Shown: one piece after another, positions 3,343 through 36,323 of the stretch
Layout of the letters: every line of letters begins with the position of its first letter
How positions within the stretch are numbered: position 1 is the stretch's first letter
Assembly (NCBI RefSeq): GCF_050920415.1
Contig: NZ_CP169309.1
Strand: one strand, 5' to 3'
From: Escherichia coli
Lineage (GTDB): Bacteria > Pseudomonadota > Gammaproteobacteria > Enterobacterales > Enterobacteriaceae
DNA: 64,000 nt
Position numbers and translations under genes: made by a program
The notes under the pieces: generated by a model
Told to the model about the DNA's origin: nothing
Database searches by the model: none
The model's input: the letters and a program-made list of their open reading frames with translations, nothing else

Positions 3343-4305
3343 TTAATACAGTTTTTTCGCGCAGTCCAGCCAGTCGCCTTTGAACGGACGCTTCATGTTT
3401 TCGATAGCGTCGATGATGTCGTGGTGAACCAGCTGTTCGTTCTGGATACCTACACAACGACCGCCGTAACCTGCCAGCAGCAGTTCAATGGCGTAAGCAC
3501 CCATACGGGAAGCCAGAATACGGTCGTAAGGCACCGGAGAACCACCGCGCTGAATGTGGCCCAACACAGTTGCACGGGTTTCACGACCAGTTTCTTTCTC
3601 GATGAAATGCGCCAGTTCGTCAACATCACACATGTGTTCGGTAATTGCCACAATGGCGTGTTTCTTACCTTTCGCGATACCCGCTTTGATTTCATTTACC
3701 AGGTCATCACGGCTGAATTCAACTTCCGGAACCACGACGAATTCACAACCACCGGCGATGGCCGCAGCCAGCGTCAGATCGCCACAGTAACGCCCCATCA
3801 CTTCCACCACGGAAATACGCTGGTGAGAAGAAGAGGTGTCACGCAGGCGGTCGATCGCTTCTACAACGGTGCTCAGCGCAGTGAAGAAACCGATAGTGTA
3901 GTCAGTGCCTTTGATGTCGTTGTCGATAGTGCCCGGCAGGCCGATGCACGGGAAGCCCATTTCGGTCAGACGCATTGCACCCATGTAGGAACCGTCACCG
4001 CCGATAACCACCAGCGCGTCGATACCACGTTTTTTCAGGTTTTCGATAGCCACGGCGCGGATGTTCTCGTCGCGGAATTCCGGGAAACGCGCAGAACCGA
4101 GGAACGTACCGCCACGGTTGATCATGTCAGACACGCTGTAACGGTCTAGCTGTACCATACGGTCTTCATACAGACCCAGATAGCCGTCATAAATACCCAT
4201 TACTTCCAGACCTTCTGTCAGCGCAGAACGAACAACCCCGCGAATTGCGGCGTTCATGCCTGGCGCATCACCGCCGCTTGTCAACACACCGATTTTCTTA
4301 ATCAT
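3343..4305 (-). CDS. pfkA: 6-phosphofructokinase I
   Basis: Start trimmed to [25 protein letters not shown]..., giving 320 aa; classic PFK motifs. Confidence 0.97.
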
Positions 4306-27282: not shown

Positions 27283-30200
27283 ATGCAGGTCAGCAGAAGG
27301 CAGTTCTTTAAGATCTGCGCTGGCGGTATGGCAGGCACCACGGCAGCGGCACTGGGTTTTGCACCCAGCGTAGCACTCGCGGAAACCCGGCAGTATAAAC
27401 TGCTGCGCACCCGCGAAACCCGTAATACCTGCACCTATTGTTCCGTAGGCTGTGGGCTGTTGATGTACAGCCTCGGTGACGGAGCAAAAAACGCCAAAGC
27501 ATCTATCTTCCATATCGAAGGTGACCCGGATCACCCGGTCAACCGCGGTGCACTTTGTCCGAAAGGCGCTGGCCTGGTGGATTTCATCCACTCCGAAAGC
27601 CGTCTGAAGTTTCCGGAATACCGTGCGCCAGGTTCTGATAAATGGCAGCAAATCAGTTGGGAAGAGGCGTTTGATCGCATTGCCAAACTGATGAAAGAAG
27701 ACCGCGATGCTAACTACATTGCGCAAAACGCCGAAGGCGTGACTGTTAACCGCTGGCTCTCCACCGGGATGCTGTGTGCTTCCGCGTCGAGTAACGAAAC
27801 CGGCTATTTAACGCAAAAATTCTCCCGCGCGCTGGGTATGCTCGCGGTCGACAACCAGGCGCGTGTCTGACACGGACCAACGGTAGCAAGTCTTGCTCCA
27901 ACATTTGGTCGCGGTGCGATGACCAACCACTGGGTCGACATCAAGAACGCCAACCTCGTCGTGGTGATGGGCGGTAACGCCGCTGAAGCTCACCCGGTCG
28001 GGTTCCGCTGGGCGATGGAAGCCAAAATTCACAACGGCGCGAAGCTGATTGTGATCGATCCTCGCTTTACGCGTACGGCGGCGGTGGCTGACTACTATGC
28101 CCCTATTCGTTCCGGTACTGACATTGCTTTCCTGTCAGGCGTATTGCTGTACCTGCTGAACAATGAAAAATTCAACCGCGAATACACCGAAGCCTATACC
28201 AACGCCAGCCTGATCGTGCGTGAGGATTACGGCTTTGAAGATGGCCTGTTCACCGGCTACGACGCGGAAAAACGCAAGTACGATAAATCCTCCTGGACTT
28301 ACGAACTGGACGAAAACGGCTTCGCCAAACGCGATACCACGCTGCAACATCCGCGCTGCGTGTGGAACTTGCTGAAACAGCACGTTTCCCGTTATACGCC
28401 AGATGTGGTTGAAAACATCTGTGGCACGCCGAAAGACGCGTTCCTGAAAGTCTGCGAATACATCGCCGAAACCAGTGCTCACGATAAAACTGCCTCGTTC
28501 CTTTACGCGCTCGGCTGGACGCAACACTCCGTTGGTGCGCAGAACATTCGTACGATGGCGATGATCCAGCTGCTGCTCGGCAATATGGGGATGGCAGGCG
28601 GCGGCGTTAACGCCCTGCGCGGTCACTCCAACATTCAGGGGCTGACGGACCTGGGGCTGCTGTCGCAGAGCCTGCCAGGTTACATGACGCTGCCAAGCGA
28701 GAAGCAGACCGATCTGCAAACCTACCTTGCCGCCAACACGCCGAAACCGCTGCTGGAAGGCCAGGTTAACTACTGGGGCAATTACCCGAAATTCTTCGTC
28801 TCCATGATGAAGGCCTTCTTTGGTGATAAAGCGACGGCAGAAAACAGCTGGGGCTTTGACTGGTTGCCGAAGTGGGATAAAGGCTACGACGTCCTGCAAT
28901 ACTTCGAGATGATGAAAGAGGGCAAGGTCAATGGCTATATCTGCCAGGGCTTTAACCCTGTTGCCTCATTCCCGAACAAAAACAAAGTGATCGGTTGTCT
29001 GTCGAAACTGAAGTTCCTCGTCACTATCGACCCGCTGAACACTGAAACCTCTAACTTCTGGCAGAACCACGGTGAGCTGAACGAAGTGGACTCGTCGAAG
29101 ATCCAGACCGAAGTGTTCCGTCTGCCATCGACCTGCTTCGCGGAAGAGAACGGTTCAATCGTTAACTCCGGTCGCTGGTTGCAGTGGCACTGGAAAGGTG
29201 CGGACGCCCCGGGGATTGCGCTGACTGATGGCGAGATCCTCTCCGGTATCTTCCTGCGCTTGCGCAAGATGTACGCCGAACAGGGTGGCGCGAACCCGGA
29301 CCAGGTGCTGAACATGACCTGGAACTACGCCATTCCGCATGAGCCGAAGTCGGAAGAAGTAGCGATGGAGAGCAACGGTAAGGCGCTGGCCGATATTACC
29401 GATCCGGCAACCGGTGCGGTTATCGTCAAGAAAGGCCAACAACTTAGCTCGTTCGCACAACTGCGCGATGACGGTACCACCTCCTGTGGCTGCTGGATTT
29501 TCGCCGGTAGCTGGACGCCAGAGGGCAACCAGATGGCACGCCGTGATAACGCCGATCCGTCTGGCCTCGGTAACACGCTGGGCTGGGCATGGGCATGGCC
29601 GCTTAACCGCCGCATTCTGTATAACCGCGCCTCCGCAGATCCGCAGGGTAACCCGTGGGATCCGAAGCGTCAGTTGCTGAAATGGGACGGCACTAAGTGG
29701 ACCGGCTGGGATATTCCGGACTACAGCGCAGCACCTCCGGGCAGTGGCGTCGGGCCGTTTATCATGCAGCAGGAAGGCATGGGGCGTCTGTTTGCCCTCG
29801 ATAAGATGGCGGAAGGTCCGTTCCCGGAACACTACGAGCCGTTTGAAACGCCGCTGGGAACTAACCCGCTGCATCCAAACGTTATCTCGAACCCGGCTGC
29901 ACGTATCTTTAAAGACGACGCCGAAGCATTGGGTAAAGCCGATAAGTTCCCGTATGTCGGAACCACCTATCGTCTGACCGAGCACTTCCACTACTGGACC
30001 AAACACGCGCTGTTGAACGCGATTTTGCAACCAGAGCAGTTTGTGGAAATCGGTGAGTCGCTGGCGAATAAACTTGGCATTGCCCAGGGCGATACCGTGA
30101 AAGTCTCCTCCAACCGTGGCTATATCAAAGCCAAAGCGGTGGTGACCAAACGTATTCGCACGCTGAAAGCGAATGGCAAAGATATCGATACCATCGGTAT

Positions 30201-32988: not shown

Positions 32989-33090
32989 GCCTGATGCGCT
33001 GCGCTTATCAGGCCTACCAATAAACTGCAATATGTTGAATTTGCACGACTTTGTAGGCAGGATAAGGCGTTCACGCCGCATCCGGCATGA
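32989..33090. repeat. REP/BIME cluster downstream of fdhE
   Basis: GCCTGATGCGCTGCGCTTATCAGGCCTAC ... GGCGTTCACGCCGCATCCGGCA units. Confidence 0.8.
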
Positions 33091-33136: not shown

Positions 33137-33355
33137 TTACCATTCCTCGCGCAGCTTACGCTGGTATTCGACACCATCTTCCTCACATCCTTGCCAGATG
33201 CCAAAAGCACTGGTTCTTGCTGTTTGCGATTGATTTACCTGGTATTGATCTACCGCTTCCCGTAATAGCTCCGCACGAGGAAGATTACACTGCACCTCAA
33301 GATCATCAAGTTGCTTAATCACCTCATTCGATAAATCGAGTAAAATTCTGCCCAT
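33137..33355 (-). CDS. yiiF: Small ribbon-helix-helix (CopG/Arc-like) DNA-binding protein
   Basis: 72 aa from [21 protein letters not shown]...; paralogous to the next gene. Confidence 0.75.
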
Positions 33356-33463
33356 ATCCATACCTGCCAGAGAGTTCATAAATATCTCGCCAATATCATT
33401 TTGAATCTATGGAGAGAAAAGTACCTTTGTCGAATGCTTAAAGAAAGTGCATTTACGTATCAC

Positions 33464-33511
33464 TTTTATTTTTGCGAGGCGTTTTCCAGATATGATGTAA
33501 CAGTTGCAGTT
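33464..33511. promoter_or_regulatory. Conserved ~48-bp block upstream of yiiF (candidate promoter/operator), duplicated upstream of yiiE
   Basis: TTTTATTTTTGCGAGGCGTTTTCCAGATATGATGTAACAGTTGCAGTT versus the yiiE copy TTTTGTTTTTGCGAGACGTTTTCCAGAAATAATAAGAACGTTGCAGTT. Confidence 0.5.
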
Positions 33512-33595
33512 ATTATAAGTTCAAGTAAAACAACCTTGTATTAATACCAGAATAAGGGCATCTGGTTTTTATATTCAAGAATAAAAAATTTTTTG

Positions 33596-33814
33596 TCATT
33601 CCTTATGCTCCTTACACTGATCATCGACCCCCACTGTCTCCCCCTTTTGCCTGCCTCCCTTTGCTTTACGCACCGGGAATTGCTGACGTTCCAGATATTG
33701 CTCTACCGCTTCGCGTAAAATTGCAGATCGTGAAACCTTACGCCAGCCCCTAAGCTTGTTCAGCCGTTTAATTGCCTCTTCTGATAAATGAAGAAAAACC
33801 GTATTCATCGTCAT
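33596..33814 (-). CDS. yiiE: Small ribbon-helix-helix (CopG/Arc-like) DNA-binding protein
   Basis: 72 aa from MTMNTVFLHLSEEAIKRLNKLRG...; the ORF track starts 3 codons earlier at GTG. Confidence 0.75.
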   Translation of the reverse strand: MTMNTVFLHLSEEAIKRLNKLRGWRKVSRSAILREAVEQYLERQQFPVRKAKGGRQKGETVGVDDQCKEHKE

Positions 33815-33902
33815 TGCCACCACCTAACATATATTACTCATTAATGTATGTGCGAAAATTACGCCGAAAAATCATTTAAAAAAAGCGGATTTTTGCATGC
33901 TG

Positions 33903-33950
33903 TTTTGTTTTTGCGAGACGTTTTCCAGAAATAATAAGAACGTTGCAGTT
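33903..33950. promoter_or_regulatory. Conserved ~48-bp block upstream of yiiE (paralogous to the yiiF block)
   Basis: See the yiiF block; about 38 of 48 identical positions at a similar distance from the start codon. Confidence 0.5.
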
Positions 33951-34338
33951 GTTTCATTTGTTAATCAAAAATGGTTTGGTTATCGCCCAGGATGAGATAT
34001 GGGTGCTATAAATATATTATATTCAGGGATATTTATTTTTTGATTGGGTCTTCATTTGCATAATCTGAATGGTGTACCCGAAAAACGTCAGCATCCTAAC
34101 AGCACCAGGATTTAAGGTGAAATTTAACATCCATCACAGACCGGTCAATGCTGCCACCAACCGGTCTTTACTTGCTCGTCGTTATAATTTTGTGGGTAAC
34201 AGTTCGGGAAACAAGGAATTCCTTCCGGAACACCCCGGTATCATCCGATAGCATTGACGTCAATCATCAGCGCGACGGTGAGTTTTTTTAATCGAATCAT
34301 AGGATGGTAACGTTAAGCACGATTACGGGTCATAGTAA

Positions 34339-34379
34339 AACTCCTGAGCTGGCGGCACTATGCCGCTTTCACAGGAGTT
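34339..34379. other. Inverted repeat / stem-loop in the 3' flank of the phosphatase-like gene
   Basis: AACTCCTG-25 nt-CAGGAGTT, with the loop itself partly self-complementary (GGCGGCA...TGCCGCT). Confidence 0.4.
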
Positions 34380-34508
34380 CTGAATGCTGGTGCTTTCTGT
34401 ATGGCATAACCATGCCCCTCGCGGCTAAGTGCCTGCACACTTCTCTCTTTGTATGTCATTTTTGCAATGCATTGGCCGAATTCTGGTAATTCAAATGAGT
34501 TTTACTCT

Positions 34509-36323
34509 TCAGACTCCCATCCCTACGGTATACGAGTTAGATTCATGAATGAAATCGACATTTTTAAAAAACGAATCTTGTAAAACATCCGTGTTGATAT
34601 TACCTTGCAAACCAACATTGAATTTGTTAGAGACATGAAGAATTCGAATATCAAACAGGTCTTTTAACATCATTAATTCTTCAGCTGTTAATGACTCGCA
34701 ACTAAAATATCCCTGTTGATCAAAAAGGTTTTCAATTTCTCCACCATAGGCGAGGCGTTTTTCAATGAGTGTTTGCAACATCGAGTTGCCAAGGACAATG
34801 GATATCGTGCGATCTTTCGCAGATTTACACCCCATCACAACGGCAACATTCGTATCCCTCTCAGGAATTTCATTTATCGCCGTCGCTAAAATGGTGGTCA
34901 AACACGCAAACGGAACTGTATTTCTTTCGTGATTTAATTTATCTACCAGTTCATTCCATTTATCAAAAATCGGGCGATATTTGTTGCGCGCAGAAATATC
35001 CAACTGGTTAAACAATTCAGCCATGCGTTTTTTTATCATCTCGATATCCGGCGAGTCAGAAATACTTTTCGCATAATACGGGCCTGATGATGTTGCATAC
35101 ATTAAAGCAGCGCCCACACCTGTCACCATGATAGGTGCAACCACGGTTTTGGCAAAGGCGACGCTGCGATGGCTATGCGCTTCACAGTCTAAAGGAATAT
35201 ATTCCACTGGCTGCGGTAAATCCTGGCATGCCTCCCTCATCATTGCGGTATGTTTTACAAACAACGGTTTTTCATTGCCAAAAAAAACTTTCTGCTTAAT
35301 TGCACTAAGAAAACGCAAATCAAAAATGATTGTTTTTGGTTTATTATTTTTGGGCACATTTCCTATTATCCCGCTAAGAACCTTCCTTGCTGCATGGAGA
35401 TTTTTTTGCACAGCACATAACACAATTGACGAAGCCTTCTCTACTTCGTTATTGATTTTAATTTTAAAATCTGCATGATATACGTTGACGGGCAATGTAA
35501 GTATATCTGGACTTACATCTTTGGCTGAGTATTTATTGGTGATCGACGGTCGTGAATCCACGAGAAAACTTAGCTGCAAATTATGCTCTATATTACCAGC
35601 TGTTTTTGTAGTGTGATTAAACATAGAGATGCCACCTCTCATTCTTTCACACATATCCTCAACTTTTTCACTTCGTTCTTGAGGCAATTTGGCTTTAACG
35701 TTAATTTGATGATTTTTACCCGTGCATTCCTTAACTACAAGGGGAACGTTATCTAAAGCGCCATATAGGTTAATAACGTCACCAGGCTTTTTATCATGTA
35801 AGTAAGTTTGATTAATACTCGAGGCATTCACAAAGAGGTCAATATTATAACTGTTTATAACTTCACCTACATCAAATGTGTAGTGCTTACTCTGGAGGCT
35901 GCCATCCTTATTTAATTGTATATCAATCAATATATCCCCTGACTTTGTCACCATATCTTTGCCATAAACCATTTGCATAGCCATTTCGAGGAGGTTTTTA
36001 TCTAACTGATTGCGGGCGTTGAGTAAGCGACTACCAAATAATTTATATACTGTTCCCGTCATTGCCAGCGCTGCGCTTTCTGTTACTTTGCGTTTCCACA
36101 GTGAGGTTTCTCTATTTTTGAACAGGCCATATTCATTATTACTCGACAACCCGAGTTTCAGTTCGTTAACACAATCGCACAGTTGCTCCTCACCTTCCAT
36201 TTTAAGGCAAAGTGAAAAATGATTTAATAGCGTTTGCTTCGGTGATTCATTACTCGTTAGTTGTTTTTCTAAATTAACAATAGAATAACCTTCTTGTTTA
36301 ATGAGATTAATATTGGCAACCAT
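34509..36323 (-). CDS. Putative phosphoinositide (inositol-polyphosphate) 4-phosphatase-like protein, CX5R family (IpgD/SopB/INPP4-like); candidate secreted effector
   Basis: Open frame 34509..36422 (637 codons). Exact motif VVMGCKSAKDRTI with Cys about 105 aa from the C-terminus, encoded at about 34806-34829. Start placed at ATG 36321-36323 because it has a near-perfect AAGGAGG Shine-Dalgarno 5 nt upstream (604 aa); the ATG at 36420-36422 has none. Very AT-rich. Confidence 0.55.
   Translation of the reverse strand: MVANINLIKQEGYSIVNLEKQLTSNESPKQTLLNHFSLCLKMEGEEQLCDCVNELKLGLSSNNEYGLFKNRETSLWKRKVTESAALAMTGTVYKLFGSRLLNARNQLDKNLLEMAMQMVYGKDMVTKSGDILIDIQLNKDGSLQSKHYTFDVGEVINSYNIDLFVNASSINQTYLHDKKPGDVINLYGALDNVPLVVKECTGKNHQINVKAKLPQERSEKVEDMCERMRGGISMFNHTTKTAGNIEHNLQLSFLVDSRPSITNKYSAKDVSPDILTLPVNVYHADFKIKINNEVEKASSIVLCAVQKNLHAARKVLSGIIGNVPKNNKPKTIIFDLRFLSAIKQKVFFGNEKPLFVKHTAMMREACQDLPQPVEYIPLDCEAHSHRSVAFAKTVVAPIMVTGVGAALMYATSSGPYYAKSISDSPDIEMIKKRMAELFNQLDISARNKYRPIFDKWNELVDKLNHERNTVPFACLTTILATAINEIPERDTNVAVVMGCKSAKDRTISIVLGNSMLQTLIEKRLAYGGEIENLFDQQGYFSCESLTAEELMMLKDLFDIRILHVSNKFNVGLQGNINTDVLQDSFFKNVDFIHESNSYTVGMGV

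What the first reader, a model, noticed from the sequence alone, without database searches (positions are those of the whole stretch)
34139..34379. Structured elements in the island's 3' flank: palindromic ACCGGTC pair and a long stem-loop
Downstream of the phosphatase-like gene (minus strand) there are two copies of ACCGGTC 20 bp apart (the first inside the palindrome GACCGGTC, about 34139-34166), and an 8-bp perfect inverted repeat AACTCCTG/CAGGAGTT enclosing a partly self-complementary 25-nt loop (34339-34379). These could be a transcription terminator, a regulatory protein site, a small RNA, or a remnant recombination site marking the island end.
Basis: seen in the sequence. Interest (0 to 1): 0.3.

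Follow-up and report, generated by a model that had tools for sequence, protein, structure and literature searches.

The report
Leftover boundary hairpins of a dead gene pair
The two structured elements are real, but they are the leftover start and end hairpins of a small two-gene cassette that has been deleted in this E. coli strain, which makes them ordinary gene-boundary signals in a much-rearranged spot rather than a new kind of element.

Summary
Both motifs are at the stated coordinates. The window is E. coli, at the hypervariable yiiE–fabY spacer. Both elements make sense on the minus strand, which is the sense strand of every flanking gene.

In B2-type E. coli and in Klebsiella, the same place holds toxin–nadS–[hairpin B]–70-aa gene–92-aa gene–[hairpin A]–yiiE or VapBC.

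**Hairpin B (34337-34381).** Its 3' arm carries the 70-aa gene's Shine-Dalgarno sequence, 7 nt before the ATG. Its core is nearly identical in Klebsiella. It travels with the 70-aa gene, not with nadS. A distant homologue has the same design with three compensatory pair changes.

**Hairpin A (34138-34167).** It follows the 92-aa stop codon by 7 nt. Other hosts have canonical terminators at that position.

**State in this window.** The cassette is dead: about 390 bp are deleted at ~34280, and a stop falls at codon 7. The hairpins are therefore relics. B is now the first strong hairpin after the 604/637-aa ORF. It also lies in a ~100-bp repeat, and recombination between the repeat's two copies would give exactly this locus layout.

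**Limits.**
- No Rfam match and no dispersed copies were found.
- There is no covariation within E. coli.
- The searched tables list no transcript ends here, but K-12 lacks B.

Interest is low. This is a new member of known kinds of element.

The parts
34138..34167 (-). Hairpin A. At the DNA level it is the inverted repeat AGACCGGT-N14-ACCGGTCT. As minus-strand RNA it is a 13-bp stem with a GCAG loop. It sits at the 3' boundary of the (decayed) 92-aa gene.
   Evidence: Searches show the structure. In B2-type genomes it begins 7 nt after the 92-aa stop codon. The variants are listed. Stem conservation is shown.
34337..34381 (-). Hairpin B. The outer stem is (AG)AACUCCUG/CAGGAGUU(UU). There is a 5x5 internal loop, an inner stem GCGGCA/UGCCGC and a UAG loop. 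It is the leader hairpin of the (decayed) 70-aa gene.
   Evidence: Searches show the structure and the variants. The Klebsiella homologue scores 52 bits with covariance model R1.
34341..34345 (-). Shine-Dalgarno AGGAG of the 70-aa gene, inside the 3' arm of hairpin B.
   Evidence: In every allele the sequence is CAGGAGTTTTRYTATG.
34313..34333 (-). Vestigial start of the 70-aa gene. ATG is at 34333-34331, followed by 5 codons and TAA at 34315-34313.
   Evidence: Sequence reading, compared with the intact ORF in JJ1886 and YDC107.
34168..34280 (-). Decayed 3' remnant of the 92-aa gene. The junction of the ~390-bp deletion is at ~34280/34281.
   Evidence: BLAST against YDC107 and JJ1886 and the alignment.
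34339..34438 (-). A ~100-bp segment made of hairpin B, a spacer with the small hairpin at 34403-34416, and a nadS-tail-like 17 nt. It occurs twice as a direct repeat in YDC107-type genomes. In the window it is chimeric between the two copies.
34509..36422 (-). A 637-codon ORF. The likely real start is MVANINLIKQ at 36326, giving 604-605 aa. It is an orphan E. coli/Shigella protein with a CKSAKDR motif. Hairpin B is the first strong hairpin downstream of it.
   Evidence: The K-12 remnant is shown.
33596..33814 (-). yiiE (a CopG/RHH family gene), the next gene downstream of hairpin A.

Best explanation
The two elements are the 5' and 3' boundary stem-loops of a small two-gene cassette. The cassette encodes a 70-aa Cys-rich protein of PHROG family 4499 and a 92-aa protein. 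In other E. coli and in Klebsiella it lies between the toxin-nadS pair and the next gene. Both elements act, or once acted, as RNA on the window's minus strand.

**Hairpin B** is the leader hairpin of the 70-aa gene. Its 3' arm contains that gene's Shine-Dalgarno sequence, 7 nt before the ATG, and its 5' arm is the anti-Shine-Dalgarno. In intact loci it most likely restricts ribosome access to the 70-aa gene. In E. coli, where a UUUU run follows, it may also stop part of the read-through from the upstream operon.

**Hairpin A** follows the 92-aa stop codon by 7 nt, at the position where related cassettes carry canonical intrinsic terminators. In E. coli it has no U tract. It therefore more likely forms or protects the mRNA 3' end and separates the cassette from yiiE.

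**In this window** the cassette is dead, with a ~390-bp internal deletion and a stop at codon 7, so both hairpins are relics. B has been left as the first strong hairpin 130 nt after the 604/637-aa ORF and probably serves as its terminator or 3'-end hairpin.

B also lies within a ~100-bp repeat. Recombination between the two copies of that repeat would produce this locus type.

Shown here: the homology, the positions, the conservation and the rearrangement history. Inferred: translational occlusion, termination and 3'-end protection.
For: **Locus identity and gene order.**
- The window is 100% identical to E. coli MFDS1022581 over the 4.5 kb compared (33300-37800). The order is fdhE / yiiF / yiiE / spacer / 637-aa ORF / fabY.
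- JJ1886 and YDC107 carry intact 70-aa and 92-aa ORFs. B lies between the nadS stop and the 70-aa ATG, and A lies 7 nt after the 92-aa stop.
- The window lacks YDC107 positions 3591-3980 and keeps only the ends of the two genes.
- The 70-aa protein is a real family: phrog_4499 at E = 8e-14, with ~50% identical homologues in 440 phage records, mostly T5-like.

**B belongs to the 70-aa gene.**
- Klebsiella has toxin-nadS-70aa-95aa with a B core differing at about 4 of 47 nt. Covariance model R1 scores it 52 bits, E = 1e-14.
- E. coli alleles L050 and L052 have B in front of the 70-aa gene with no nadS upstream.
- Salmonella has nadS without the 70-aa gene and has no B.

**B's design recurs in distant relatives.**
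- In L064 (58% identical homologue) the outer stem CACUCCGA/UCGGAGUG differs from E. coli AACUCCUG/CAGGAGUU by three both-sided changes. The Shine-Dalgarno is still in the 3' arm and the apical hairpin is again G+C-rich.
- In L032 the inner stem is GGGGCA/UGCCCC against GCGGCA/UGCCGC, one compensatory pair.
- The viral relatives L103, L105 and L109 have long hairpins with GGAG in the 3' arm.

**Strand.**
- The commonest B allele keeps its inner stem through a G.U pair that exists only on the minus strand.
- A has two invariant G.U pairs, and its apical pair is G-C, G.U or A-U in different alleles, again only on the minus strand.

**A marks an operon end.** Klebsiella and L064 have canonical terminators directly after the homologous second gene, and L032 has a 9-bp G+C hairpin there.

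**Recombination.** YDC107 carries two copies of the 100-bp segment. The window and O157 alleles are chimeric, with different crossover points.
Against: - Within E. coli the stems hardly vary, so there is no statistical covariation. The cross-genus compensatory changes were read by eye from a few sequences.
- In Klebsiella and in E. coli L052 the outer stem of B carries uncompensated mismatches. In Klebsiella, occlusion would need a different pairing register.
- T5-like phages and several viral relatives lack such a hairpin. The family-wide excess of Shine-Dalgarno pairing is weak: median 0.77 against 0.51, one-sided p = 0.03, with non-independent sequences and crude controls.
- A palindrome is conserved equally well as a DNA operator. 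The 5' half of B is much more conserved than the 3' internal loop, which a simple hairpin model does not explain.
- A has no U tract on the sense strand. Covariance model R2 does not detect it as homologous to the Klebsiella or L064 terminators.
- No 3' end near A is listed in the K-12 Term-seq tables that could be searched.
Confidence: 0.6

Rival explanations
1. Both elements are simply Rho-independent transcription terminators on the minus strand. B would end the nadS operon (here the 604/637-aa gene). A would be a second, back-up terminator in front of yiiE. The link to the small genes would be incidental.
For: - B is a stable hairpin (-22 to -26 kcal/mol) flanked by AGAA upstream and UUUUACUAU downstream.
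- It lies 38 nt after the nadS stop in nadS-type genomes and 130 nt after the 637-aa ORF here.
- Canonical terminators occupy A's position in Klebsiella and L064.
Against: - The simple terminator scan did not call either element.
- The U run after B is the Shine-Dalgarno-to-ATG spacer. It is absent in Klebsiella (UGAUGAAAUG) and in copy 2 of YDC107 (UUACCUUCC).
- An efficient terminator 7 nt before the 70-aa ATG would leave that gene without a transcript.
- B is kept in front of the 70-aa gene where there is no nadS upstream, and it is missing after nadS in Salmonella.
- A has only 4 U in the 10 nt after its stem.
- My own d'Aubenton-Carafa-style estimate for B is borderline, about -2.
Confidence: 0.2
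2. The elements work as double-stranded DNA operators. The two ACCGGT palindromes, 20 bp apart, would bind a ribbon-helix-helix protein such as YiiE or YiiF. The nested palindrome of B would bind the HTH antitoxin NadS or one of the cassette's own proteins.
For: - The two ACCGGT cores lie two helical turns apart and are invariant.
- Copy 2 of B in YDC107 is a perfect 19-bp-arm palindrome.
- Compensatory changes keep a palindrome just as they keep an RNA stem.
- The 5' half of B is more conserved than a hairpin needs.
Against: - A is 315 bp upstream of the yiiE start codon, and yiiE persists without A in HigBA-type genomes.
- There is no further ACCGGTC pair elsewhere in the locus.
- The palindrome in the TA promoter (GTACGTCA-A-TGACGTAC) does not resemble B.
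- The G.U pairs in both elements preserve pairing only in minus-strand RNA and are mismatches in a DNA palindrome.
Confidence: 0.1
3. B is the remnant of a site-specific recombination or insertion target (attC-like, dif-like or a transposon end) that marks the boundary of a mobile island.
For: - B lies exactly at the left edge (34339) of the duplicated segment in YDC107.
- The two copies flank a 1.8-kb nadS-toxin-hydrolase unit.
- The locus exists in at least six layouts.
Against: - The repeat is ~100 bp long, and the window and O157 alleles have different crossover points inside it. That is the signature of homologous recombination, not of site-specific recombination.
- B has no RYYYAAC/GTTRRRY cores by inspection, and no integrase or recombinase is next to it.
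- B's 3' arm occurs in only one of 100,044 species representatives, E. coli, beyond chance hits.
- B is single-copy in most genomes.
Confidence: 0.04
4. One or both elements belong to an unannotated small RNA. One candidate is a plus-strand transcript running from the promoter-like site at 33992-34020 to hairpin A followed by UUUACUU.
For: - There is a promoter-like match on the plus strand upstream of A.
- On the plus strand, A is followed by UCUUUACUUGCU, which is the more U-rich of the two sides.
Against: - There is no Rfam match.
- A on the plus strand is only -11.8 kcal/mol, z = -1.45, 30th percentile.
- The commonest allele turns two plus-strand pairs into C.A mismatches.
- Promoter-like sites in this region are no more frequent than in shuffled sequence.
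- No entry was found in the Term-seq tables searched.
Confidence: 0.03

Closest known systems
Shine-Dalgarno-sequestering leader hairpins (translational operators, as in the leaders of many phage genes and type I toxin mRNAs; from general knowledge)
   Same: The Shine-Dalgarno AGGAG lies in the 3' arm of a stable stem with an upstream anti-Shine-Dalgarno. The start codon is 7 nt after the stem. The design recurs in homologous cassettes with compensatory changes.
   Different: No trigger that would open the hairpin is known. No antisense RNA or upstream coupling ORF was seen, and nadS stops 38 nt before the stem. At -18 to -25 kcal/mol it is too stable to act as a thermometer. In this window the gene it served is dead.
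Rho-independent (intrinsic) terminators
   Same: Both are G+C-rich stem-loops just downstream of a stop codon on the sense strand. B has an A-rich 5' flank and a U-rich 3' flank. Related cassettes have canonical terminators at A's position.
   Different: A has no U tract. B's U run is only 4 nt long and is not conserved in Klebsiella or in copy 2 of YDC107. B has a large internal loop, and the tool's scan did not call it.
Phage T7-type RNase III processing signals (two stems separated by an internal loop; recalled from memory, a lead only)
   Same: B has a lower stem of 8-10 bp, a 5x5 internal loop and an upper stem of 6 bp. It lies between cistrons, and the downstream gene's Shine-Dalgarno is in the lower stem.
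   Different: Nothing here tests for cleavage, and there is no sequence similarity to known sites.
REP/BIME extragenic palindromes
   Same: Both are intergenic palindromic hairpins in E. coli. Genuine REP-derived Rfam hits lie nearby, for example ES036 at 33010-33052.
   Different: A and B are single-copy: A is found once in all but one genome, B once in ~90% and twice in ~330. They do not match REP-derived Rfam families.
Integron attC sites and other cassette-boundary recombination sites
   Same: B is an imperfect palindrome at the end of a gene. It is duplicated on both sides of a 1.8-kb toxin-antitoxin plus hydrolase unit in some genomes.
   Different: There are no conserved R''/R' cores and no integrase. 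The repeat is ~100 bp, and the crossover points vary as in homologous recombination.

Membership tests
Rho-independent terminator | Stable G+C-rich stem-loop on the transcribed strand, downstream of a stop codon | tested here: met
   B is -22 to -26 kcal/mol (z = -3.8) and A is -22.3 kcal/mol (z = -3.5), both on the minus strand. Their positions relative to stop codons are shown.
Rho-independent terminator | U-rich tract of about 7-9 nt immediately 3' of the stem | tested here: inconclusive
   B is followed by UUUUACUAU (6 U in 9), but part of that run can pair into the stem, and it is absent in Klebsiella and in copy 2 of YDC107. A is followed by UGUGAUGGAU, which does not meet the criterion. 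The scan called neither.
Rho-independent terminator | RNA 3' ends mapped at the U tract | not testable with these tools
   There are no entries for yiiE or for MG1655 coordinates 40789xx-40790xx in the supplementary tables that could be searched. K-12 lacks B.
Shine-Dalgarno-sequestering leader hairpin | Shine-Dalgarno of the downstream ORF base-paired in a stable stem, with the start codon close behind | tested here: met
   AGGAG lies in the 3' arm and the ATG is 7 nt after the stem in every E. coli allele. The pairing probability of the Shine-Dalgarno is 0.98-0.99 for the nadS-linked B2-type leaders (L005, L056), 0.77 for E. coli L052, 0.68 for Klebsiella, 0.75 for L032 and 1.00 for L064.
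Shine-Dalgarno-sequestering leader hairpin | Pairing maintained by compensatory change among homologues | tested here: inconclusive
   There is none within E. coli. There are three both-sided changes in L064 and one in L032, all read by eye. There are uncompensated mismatches in Klebsiella and in L052.
Shine-Dalgarno-sequestering leader hairpin | Stem mutations change translation of the downstream gene | not testable with these tools
   This needs reporter fusions.
REP/BIME element | Many dispersed copies per genome with the REP consensus | tested here: not met
   The median is one place per genome for both elements. There is no REP-family Rfam hit on either.
Known RNA family (Rfam 15) | Match at or near the gathering score | tested here: not met
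   The only match overlapping either element is STnc470 at 34304-34417 (+), 11.4 bits against a gathering score of 80, E = 7.6, which is noise. Searches found nothing.
Integron attC or other site-specific recombination site | Conserved core sites, a cognate recombinase nearby, and exact crossover points | tested here: not met
   No recombinase is annotated in the locus. The crossover points differ between the window and O157 alleles. No RYYYAAC/GTTRRRY cores were seen by inspection.

The most novel reading that the evidence does not exclude
Hairpin B is the founding example of an undescribed cis-regulatory RNA that gates expression of a phage-derived pair of small genes: a protein with the RRHH...CxCSCWMCG motif (PHROG 4499) and its 92-aa partner. 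The pair is attached to NadS-type toxin-antitoxin modules in Enterobacteriaceae. Candidate mechanisms are that read-through transcripts keep the Shine-Dalgarno locked while processing (RNase III) frees it, that an internal promoter in the conserved 5' half produces transcripts with a free Shine-Dalgarno, or that one of the two small proteins binds the invariant GCGGCA-UAG-UGCCGC apex. In addition, the ~100-bp B-containing repeat would act as the substrate that lets cargo modules be swapped at the yiiE-fabY hot spot.
Probability: 0.15. Interest if true: 0.4.

Novelty: new member of a known kind. Interest (0 to 1): 0.15.

Why it matters
For this window it matters little. The elements are relics, and at most they end the transcript of the neighbouring orphan gene.

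The wider context is of modest value.
- It explains the layout of a hypervariable E. coli locus, including the K-12 state, as a series of deletions and repeat-mediated recombinations.
- It shows that a small gene pair related to T5-like phage genes, with a conserved leader hairpin, is attached to NadS-type toxin-antitoxin modules in two genera.
- It flags an unannotated leader structure that could be tested as a translational control element.

Tried and rejected
- **Rfam.** Scans of the region, of the intact B2-type locus and of the whole window found no family on A or B.
- **Simple promoter and terminator scan.** Neither hairpin was called. The minus-strand promoter-like site that overlaps A (TTGACC-16-TAAATT) is specific to this allele, and such sites are no more frequent here than in shuffled sequence.
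- **Coding readings.**
  - The plus-strand 60-aa ORF at 34069-34251 accumulates non-synonymous differences and is cut short in B2 genomes.
  - The 30-aa minus-strand ORF of nadS-type genomes is a fusion of the two gene remnants, and a TAA breaks it in the window.
  - Neither ORF matches any family.
- **Dispersed repeat or mobile-element end.** A is found at one place per genome; B at one place in ~90% of the genomes that carry it and two in ~330. B's arm is found only in E. coli among the species representatives.
- **NadS as the owner of B.** All ten contexts of this exact NadS protein are the same chromosomal locus, and Salmonella nadS lacks B.
- **Covariation within E. coli.** None was found because the stems are invariant.
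- **Homology of A to the terminators of Klebsiella and L064.** Covariance model R2 did not detect any.
- **Published 3'-end maps.** No entry for this locus appears in the tables that could be searched. Three other papers have no supplementary files held as text.
- **Literature on yiiE and yiiF.** Nothing bears on this spacer.
- **Fold of the 604-aa protein.** The AlphaFold model has mean pLDDT 37.8, so no fold search was run.

Full report
**Observation.** The sequence shows GACCGGTC at 34139-34146 and a second ACCGGTC at 34160-34166. It also shows AACTCCTG (34339-34346) facing CAGGAGTT (34372-34379) across 25 nt that contain an inner stem GCGGCA/TGCCGC. The first pair is really an inverted repeat, AGACCGGT-N14-ACCGGTCT, at 34138-34167.

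The bare motifs are not rare. ACCGGTC occurs 8 times in the window against 5.8 expected. The window holds 88 perfect 8-bp inverted repeats with short loops, against about 33 in simulations.

As folded RNA the picture differs by strand.
- Element B is among the roughly 20 most stable local hairpins of the 64 kb on either strand (top 0.13%).
- Element A is notable only on the minus strand. There, G.U pairs extend it to 13 bp (-22.3 kcal/mol, z = -3.5).
- On the plus strand A is ordinary.

**Where this is.** The window is E. coli. It is 100% identical to strain MFDS1022581 over the 4.5 kb compared (33300-37800). The gene order is:
- fdoGHI-fdhE on the plus strand;
- yiiF and yiiE on the minus strand;
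- a 694-bp spacer;
- a 637-codon ORF on the minus strand;
- then fabY, dtd and yihY.

The yiiE-fabY interval is a hot spot with at least six layouts.
- K-12 carries a short remnant.
- Many strains have toxin-nadS plus an alpha/beta hydrolase.
- The window and O157 have the large ORF.
- B2 strains such as JJ1886 have two additional small genes.
- YDC107 has everything together.
- A few strains have a HigBA pair.

Counts among 5426 complete genomes are as follows.

| Feature | Genomes |
|---|---|
| Element A, single copy | 5370 |
| Element B (about 330 of these carry two copies) | 3369 |
| Intact small-gene segment | 1270 |
| Large ORF | 1063 |

K-12 is not island-free. It is a deletion of window 34212-36258, and it keeps about the first 22 codons of the large ORF counted from the MVANINLIKQ start, together with element A.

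**What the elements flank.** In JJ1886 and YDC107 the minus strand reads as follows:
- toxin, then nadS;
- 38 nt;
- B;
- UUUUGCU;
- ATG of a 70-aa ORF;
- a 92-aa ORF ending in TAA;
- 7 nt;
- A;
- then yiiE.

The 70-aa protein belongs to PHROG 4499 (E = 8e-14). It has ~50% identical relatives in 440 phage records, mostly T5-like, and a conserved RRHH...TPCxCSCWMCG motif.

The window lacks the ~390 bp that hold most of the 70-aa gene and the 5' part of the 92-aa gene. The junction is at ~34280. The 70-aa reading frame is also stopped at codon 7, with ATG at 34333-34331 and TAA at 34315-34313. The stretch 34168-34333 between A and B is therefore pseudogene debris, and A and B are the surviving ends of that cassette.

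**Element B belongs to the 70-aa gene.** Several comparisons point the same way.
- A Klebsiella genome has the same four genes at the orthologous place, with B's core almost unchanged: CTCAGAACTCATGTGAACGCGGCATAGTGCCGCCAACTCAGGAGT. The adjacent 95-aa protein there is only 59% identical to the E. coli 92-aa protein. A covariance model built from the E. coli alleles scores this Klebsiella sequence at 52 bits.
- E. coli alleles L050 and L052 carry B in front of the 70-aa gene with no nadS upstream.
- Salmonella has nadS at the orthologous locus without the small genes. It has a different hairpin there and no B.
- In every allele the 3' arm CAGGAG is the Shine-Dalgarno sequence, 7 nt before the ATG.
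- A 58% identical homologue, L064, has the outer stem CACUCCGA/UCGGAGUG. That is three both-sided changes relative to AACUCCUG/CAGGAGUU. It again has a G+C-rich apical hairpin, and GGAG is again in the 3' arm.
- A Salmonella-derived fragment, L032, has GAACUCAU...GGGGCA-UUG-UGCCCC...GGAGUU, which carries one compensatory pair in the inner stem.
- Three distant viral relatives also have long hairpins that hold the Shine-Dalgarno sequence.

The weak points are these.
- T5-like phages lack such a hairpin.
- Klebsiella and L052 carry uncompensated mismatches in the outer stem. Klebsiella would need another pairing register to occlude the Shine-Dalgarno.
- The family-wide excess of Shine-Dalgarno pairing is only marginal, at p = 0.03 with crude controls.
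- Inside E. coli the stems do not vary, so there is no covariation signal.
- The U run after B is the Shine-Dalgarno-to-ATG spacer. It is missing in Klebsiella and in the second YDC107 copy, which weakens a pure terminator reading.

**Element A.** It starts 7 nt after the 92-aa stop codon.

Its stem is the second most conserved block of the 440-nt yiiE upstream region, with 20 of 21 stem columns invariant against a 67% background. Variation is confined to the apex. There the closing pair is G-C, G.U or A-U in different alleles, and a G.U alternates with G-C. These changes keep pairing only in the minus-strand RNA.

At the same position Klebsiella and L064 have textbook terminators: ACCCGGCCAAC...GTTGGCTGGGT followed by T7, and AACCCCGC-TTCG-GCGGGGTT followed by T7. 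L032 has a 9-bp G+C hairpin there. Homology of A to these could not be shown.

A has no U tract on the sense strand. My inference is that it acts as an mRNA 3'-end hairpin or a weak terminator between the cassette and yiiE. No mapped 3' end was found in the K-12 tables I could search.

**Recombination history.** In YDC107 a ~100-bp segment occurs twice as a direct repeat. It consists of B, a spacer with a small hairpin, and the last 17 nt of nadS. One copy follows nadS. The other follows the large ORF, where B abuts the stop codon of the convergent hydrolase gene and is a perfect palindrome with 19-bp arms.

Deleting between the two copies gives exactly the window's layout. The window's copy is chimeric:
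- the interior of the left arm and the small hairpin match copy 1;
- the nadS-tail part matches copy 2.

The O157 allele has a different crossover point. This supports repeated homologous recombination, not a site-specific recombination site. Relative to nadS-type genomes, the DNA specific to the large ORF ends at ~34440, so both elements lie outside it.

**Comparison with known kinds.** There is no Rfam family on either element. They are single-copy or nearly so rather than dispersed like REP elements. No attC-like cores and no recombinase were found.

B works most like a Shine-Dalgarno-sequestering leader hairpin, possibly with partial terminator activity. A is a gene-end hairpin at a terminator position. 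Both are new members of known kinds, and in this strain they are vestigial.

**Verdict.**
- Interest is low (0.15).

The most novel reading not excluded is that B is a dedicated regulatory RNA for a small gene pair related to T5-like phage genes and attached to NadS-type toxin-antitoxin modules. I put that at about 0.15 probability.

Noticed in passing
window 34509-36422 (-): This is a 637-codon ORF. Its likely start is MVANINLIKQ at 36326, giving 604-605 aa, and it carries a CKSAKDR (CX5R) motif. It has no Pfam, NCBIfam, PADLOC or PDB match, and its only homologues are in E. coli and Shigella. RefSeq annotates its halves as 'transposase' plus a pseudogene. The window's allele is unusual: only 25 of 1063 genomes are >=95% identical to it. 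The AlphaFold model was unusable (pLDDT 38).
   Followed up: partly
L020 (MG1655) 2831-2956 = NC_000913.3 4078830-4078955: K-12 keeps the promoter region, the ribosome-binding site GGAAGGAGG and the first ~22 codons of the large ORF, fused by the 2047-bp deletion to cassette debris. The result is an unannotated 35-codon ORF that ends 2 nt before hairpin A.
   Followed up: partly
L005 3412-4034; L055 1227-1788; L032 1232-1795; L064 1145-1694: A conserved pair of small genes occurs in E. coli, Klebsiella, a Salmonella-derived fragment and an unknown host. The first is a ~70-aa protein with RRHH...TPCxCSCWMCG (PHROG 4499, also found in T5-like phages as a ~104-aa protein). The second is a 92-97-aa protein that starts MS(T/N)FNTRKDRDRNG and ends QIY(Y/F)Y. 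Their function is unknown. In E. coli and Klebsiella the pair sits next to a toxin-NadS pair.
   Followed up: partly
window 34354-34366 with 34421-34433: A 13-nt stretch in the nadS-tail remnant is 85% complementary to the inner part of hairpin B. This alternative pairing would compete with B. It may be chance.
   Followed up: no
alignment A3 (hairpin B alleles): The 5' half of B is invariant in ten distinct alleles, while the 5-nt internal loop on the 3' side has seven different sequences. A weak promoter-like reading, TTCAGA-16-CATAGT, lies inside the conserved half.
   Followed up: no
L002 5350-5420; L005 5790-5850: In genomes without the large ORF, the convergent hydrolase and fabY genes are separated by a perfect 13-bp-arm palindrome, GAAAAGGTTTTCA-GAT-TGAAAACCTTTTC. 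It looks like a bidirectional terminator, and the large-ORF segment replaces it.
   Followed up: no
window 33010-33052 (-), 27865-27923 (+): Rfam hits outside the finding: the REP-derived ES036 between yiiF and fdhE, and the SECIS element of fdoG. The SECIS explains why the fdoG ORF appears truncated to 804 aa in the ORF list.
   Followed up: no
L016 (NZ_POTY01000570.1, 445 bp, coverage 0.76): A contig filed under Micromonospora craterilacus carries the E. coli A-to-B spacer almost exactly. It is most likely E. coli contamination of that assembly.
   Followed up: no
L002 1127-2107: An IS621 (IS110 family) copy is inserted between fdhE and yiiF in strain RM13745. This is another sign that the neighbourhood is a rearrangement hot spot.
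   Followed up: no
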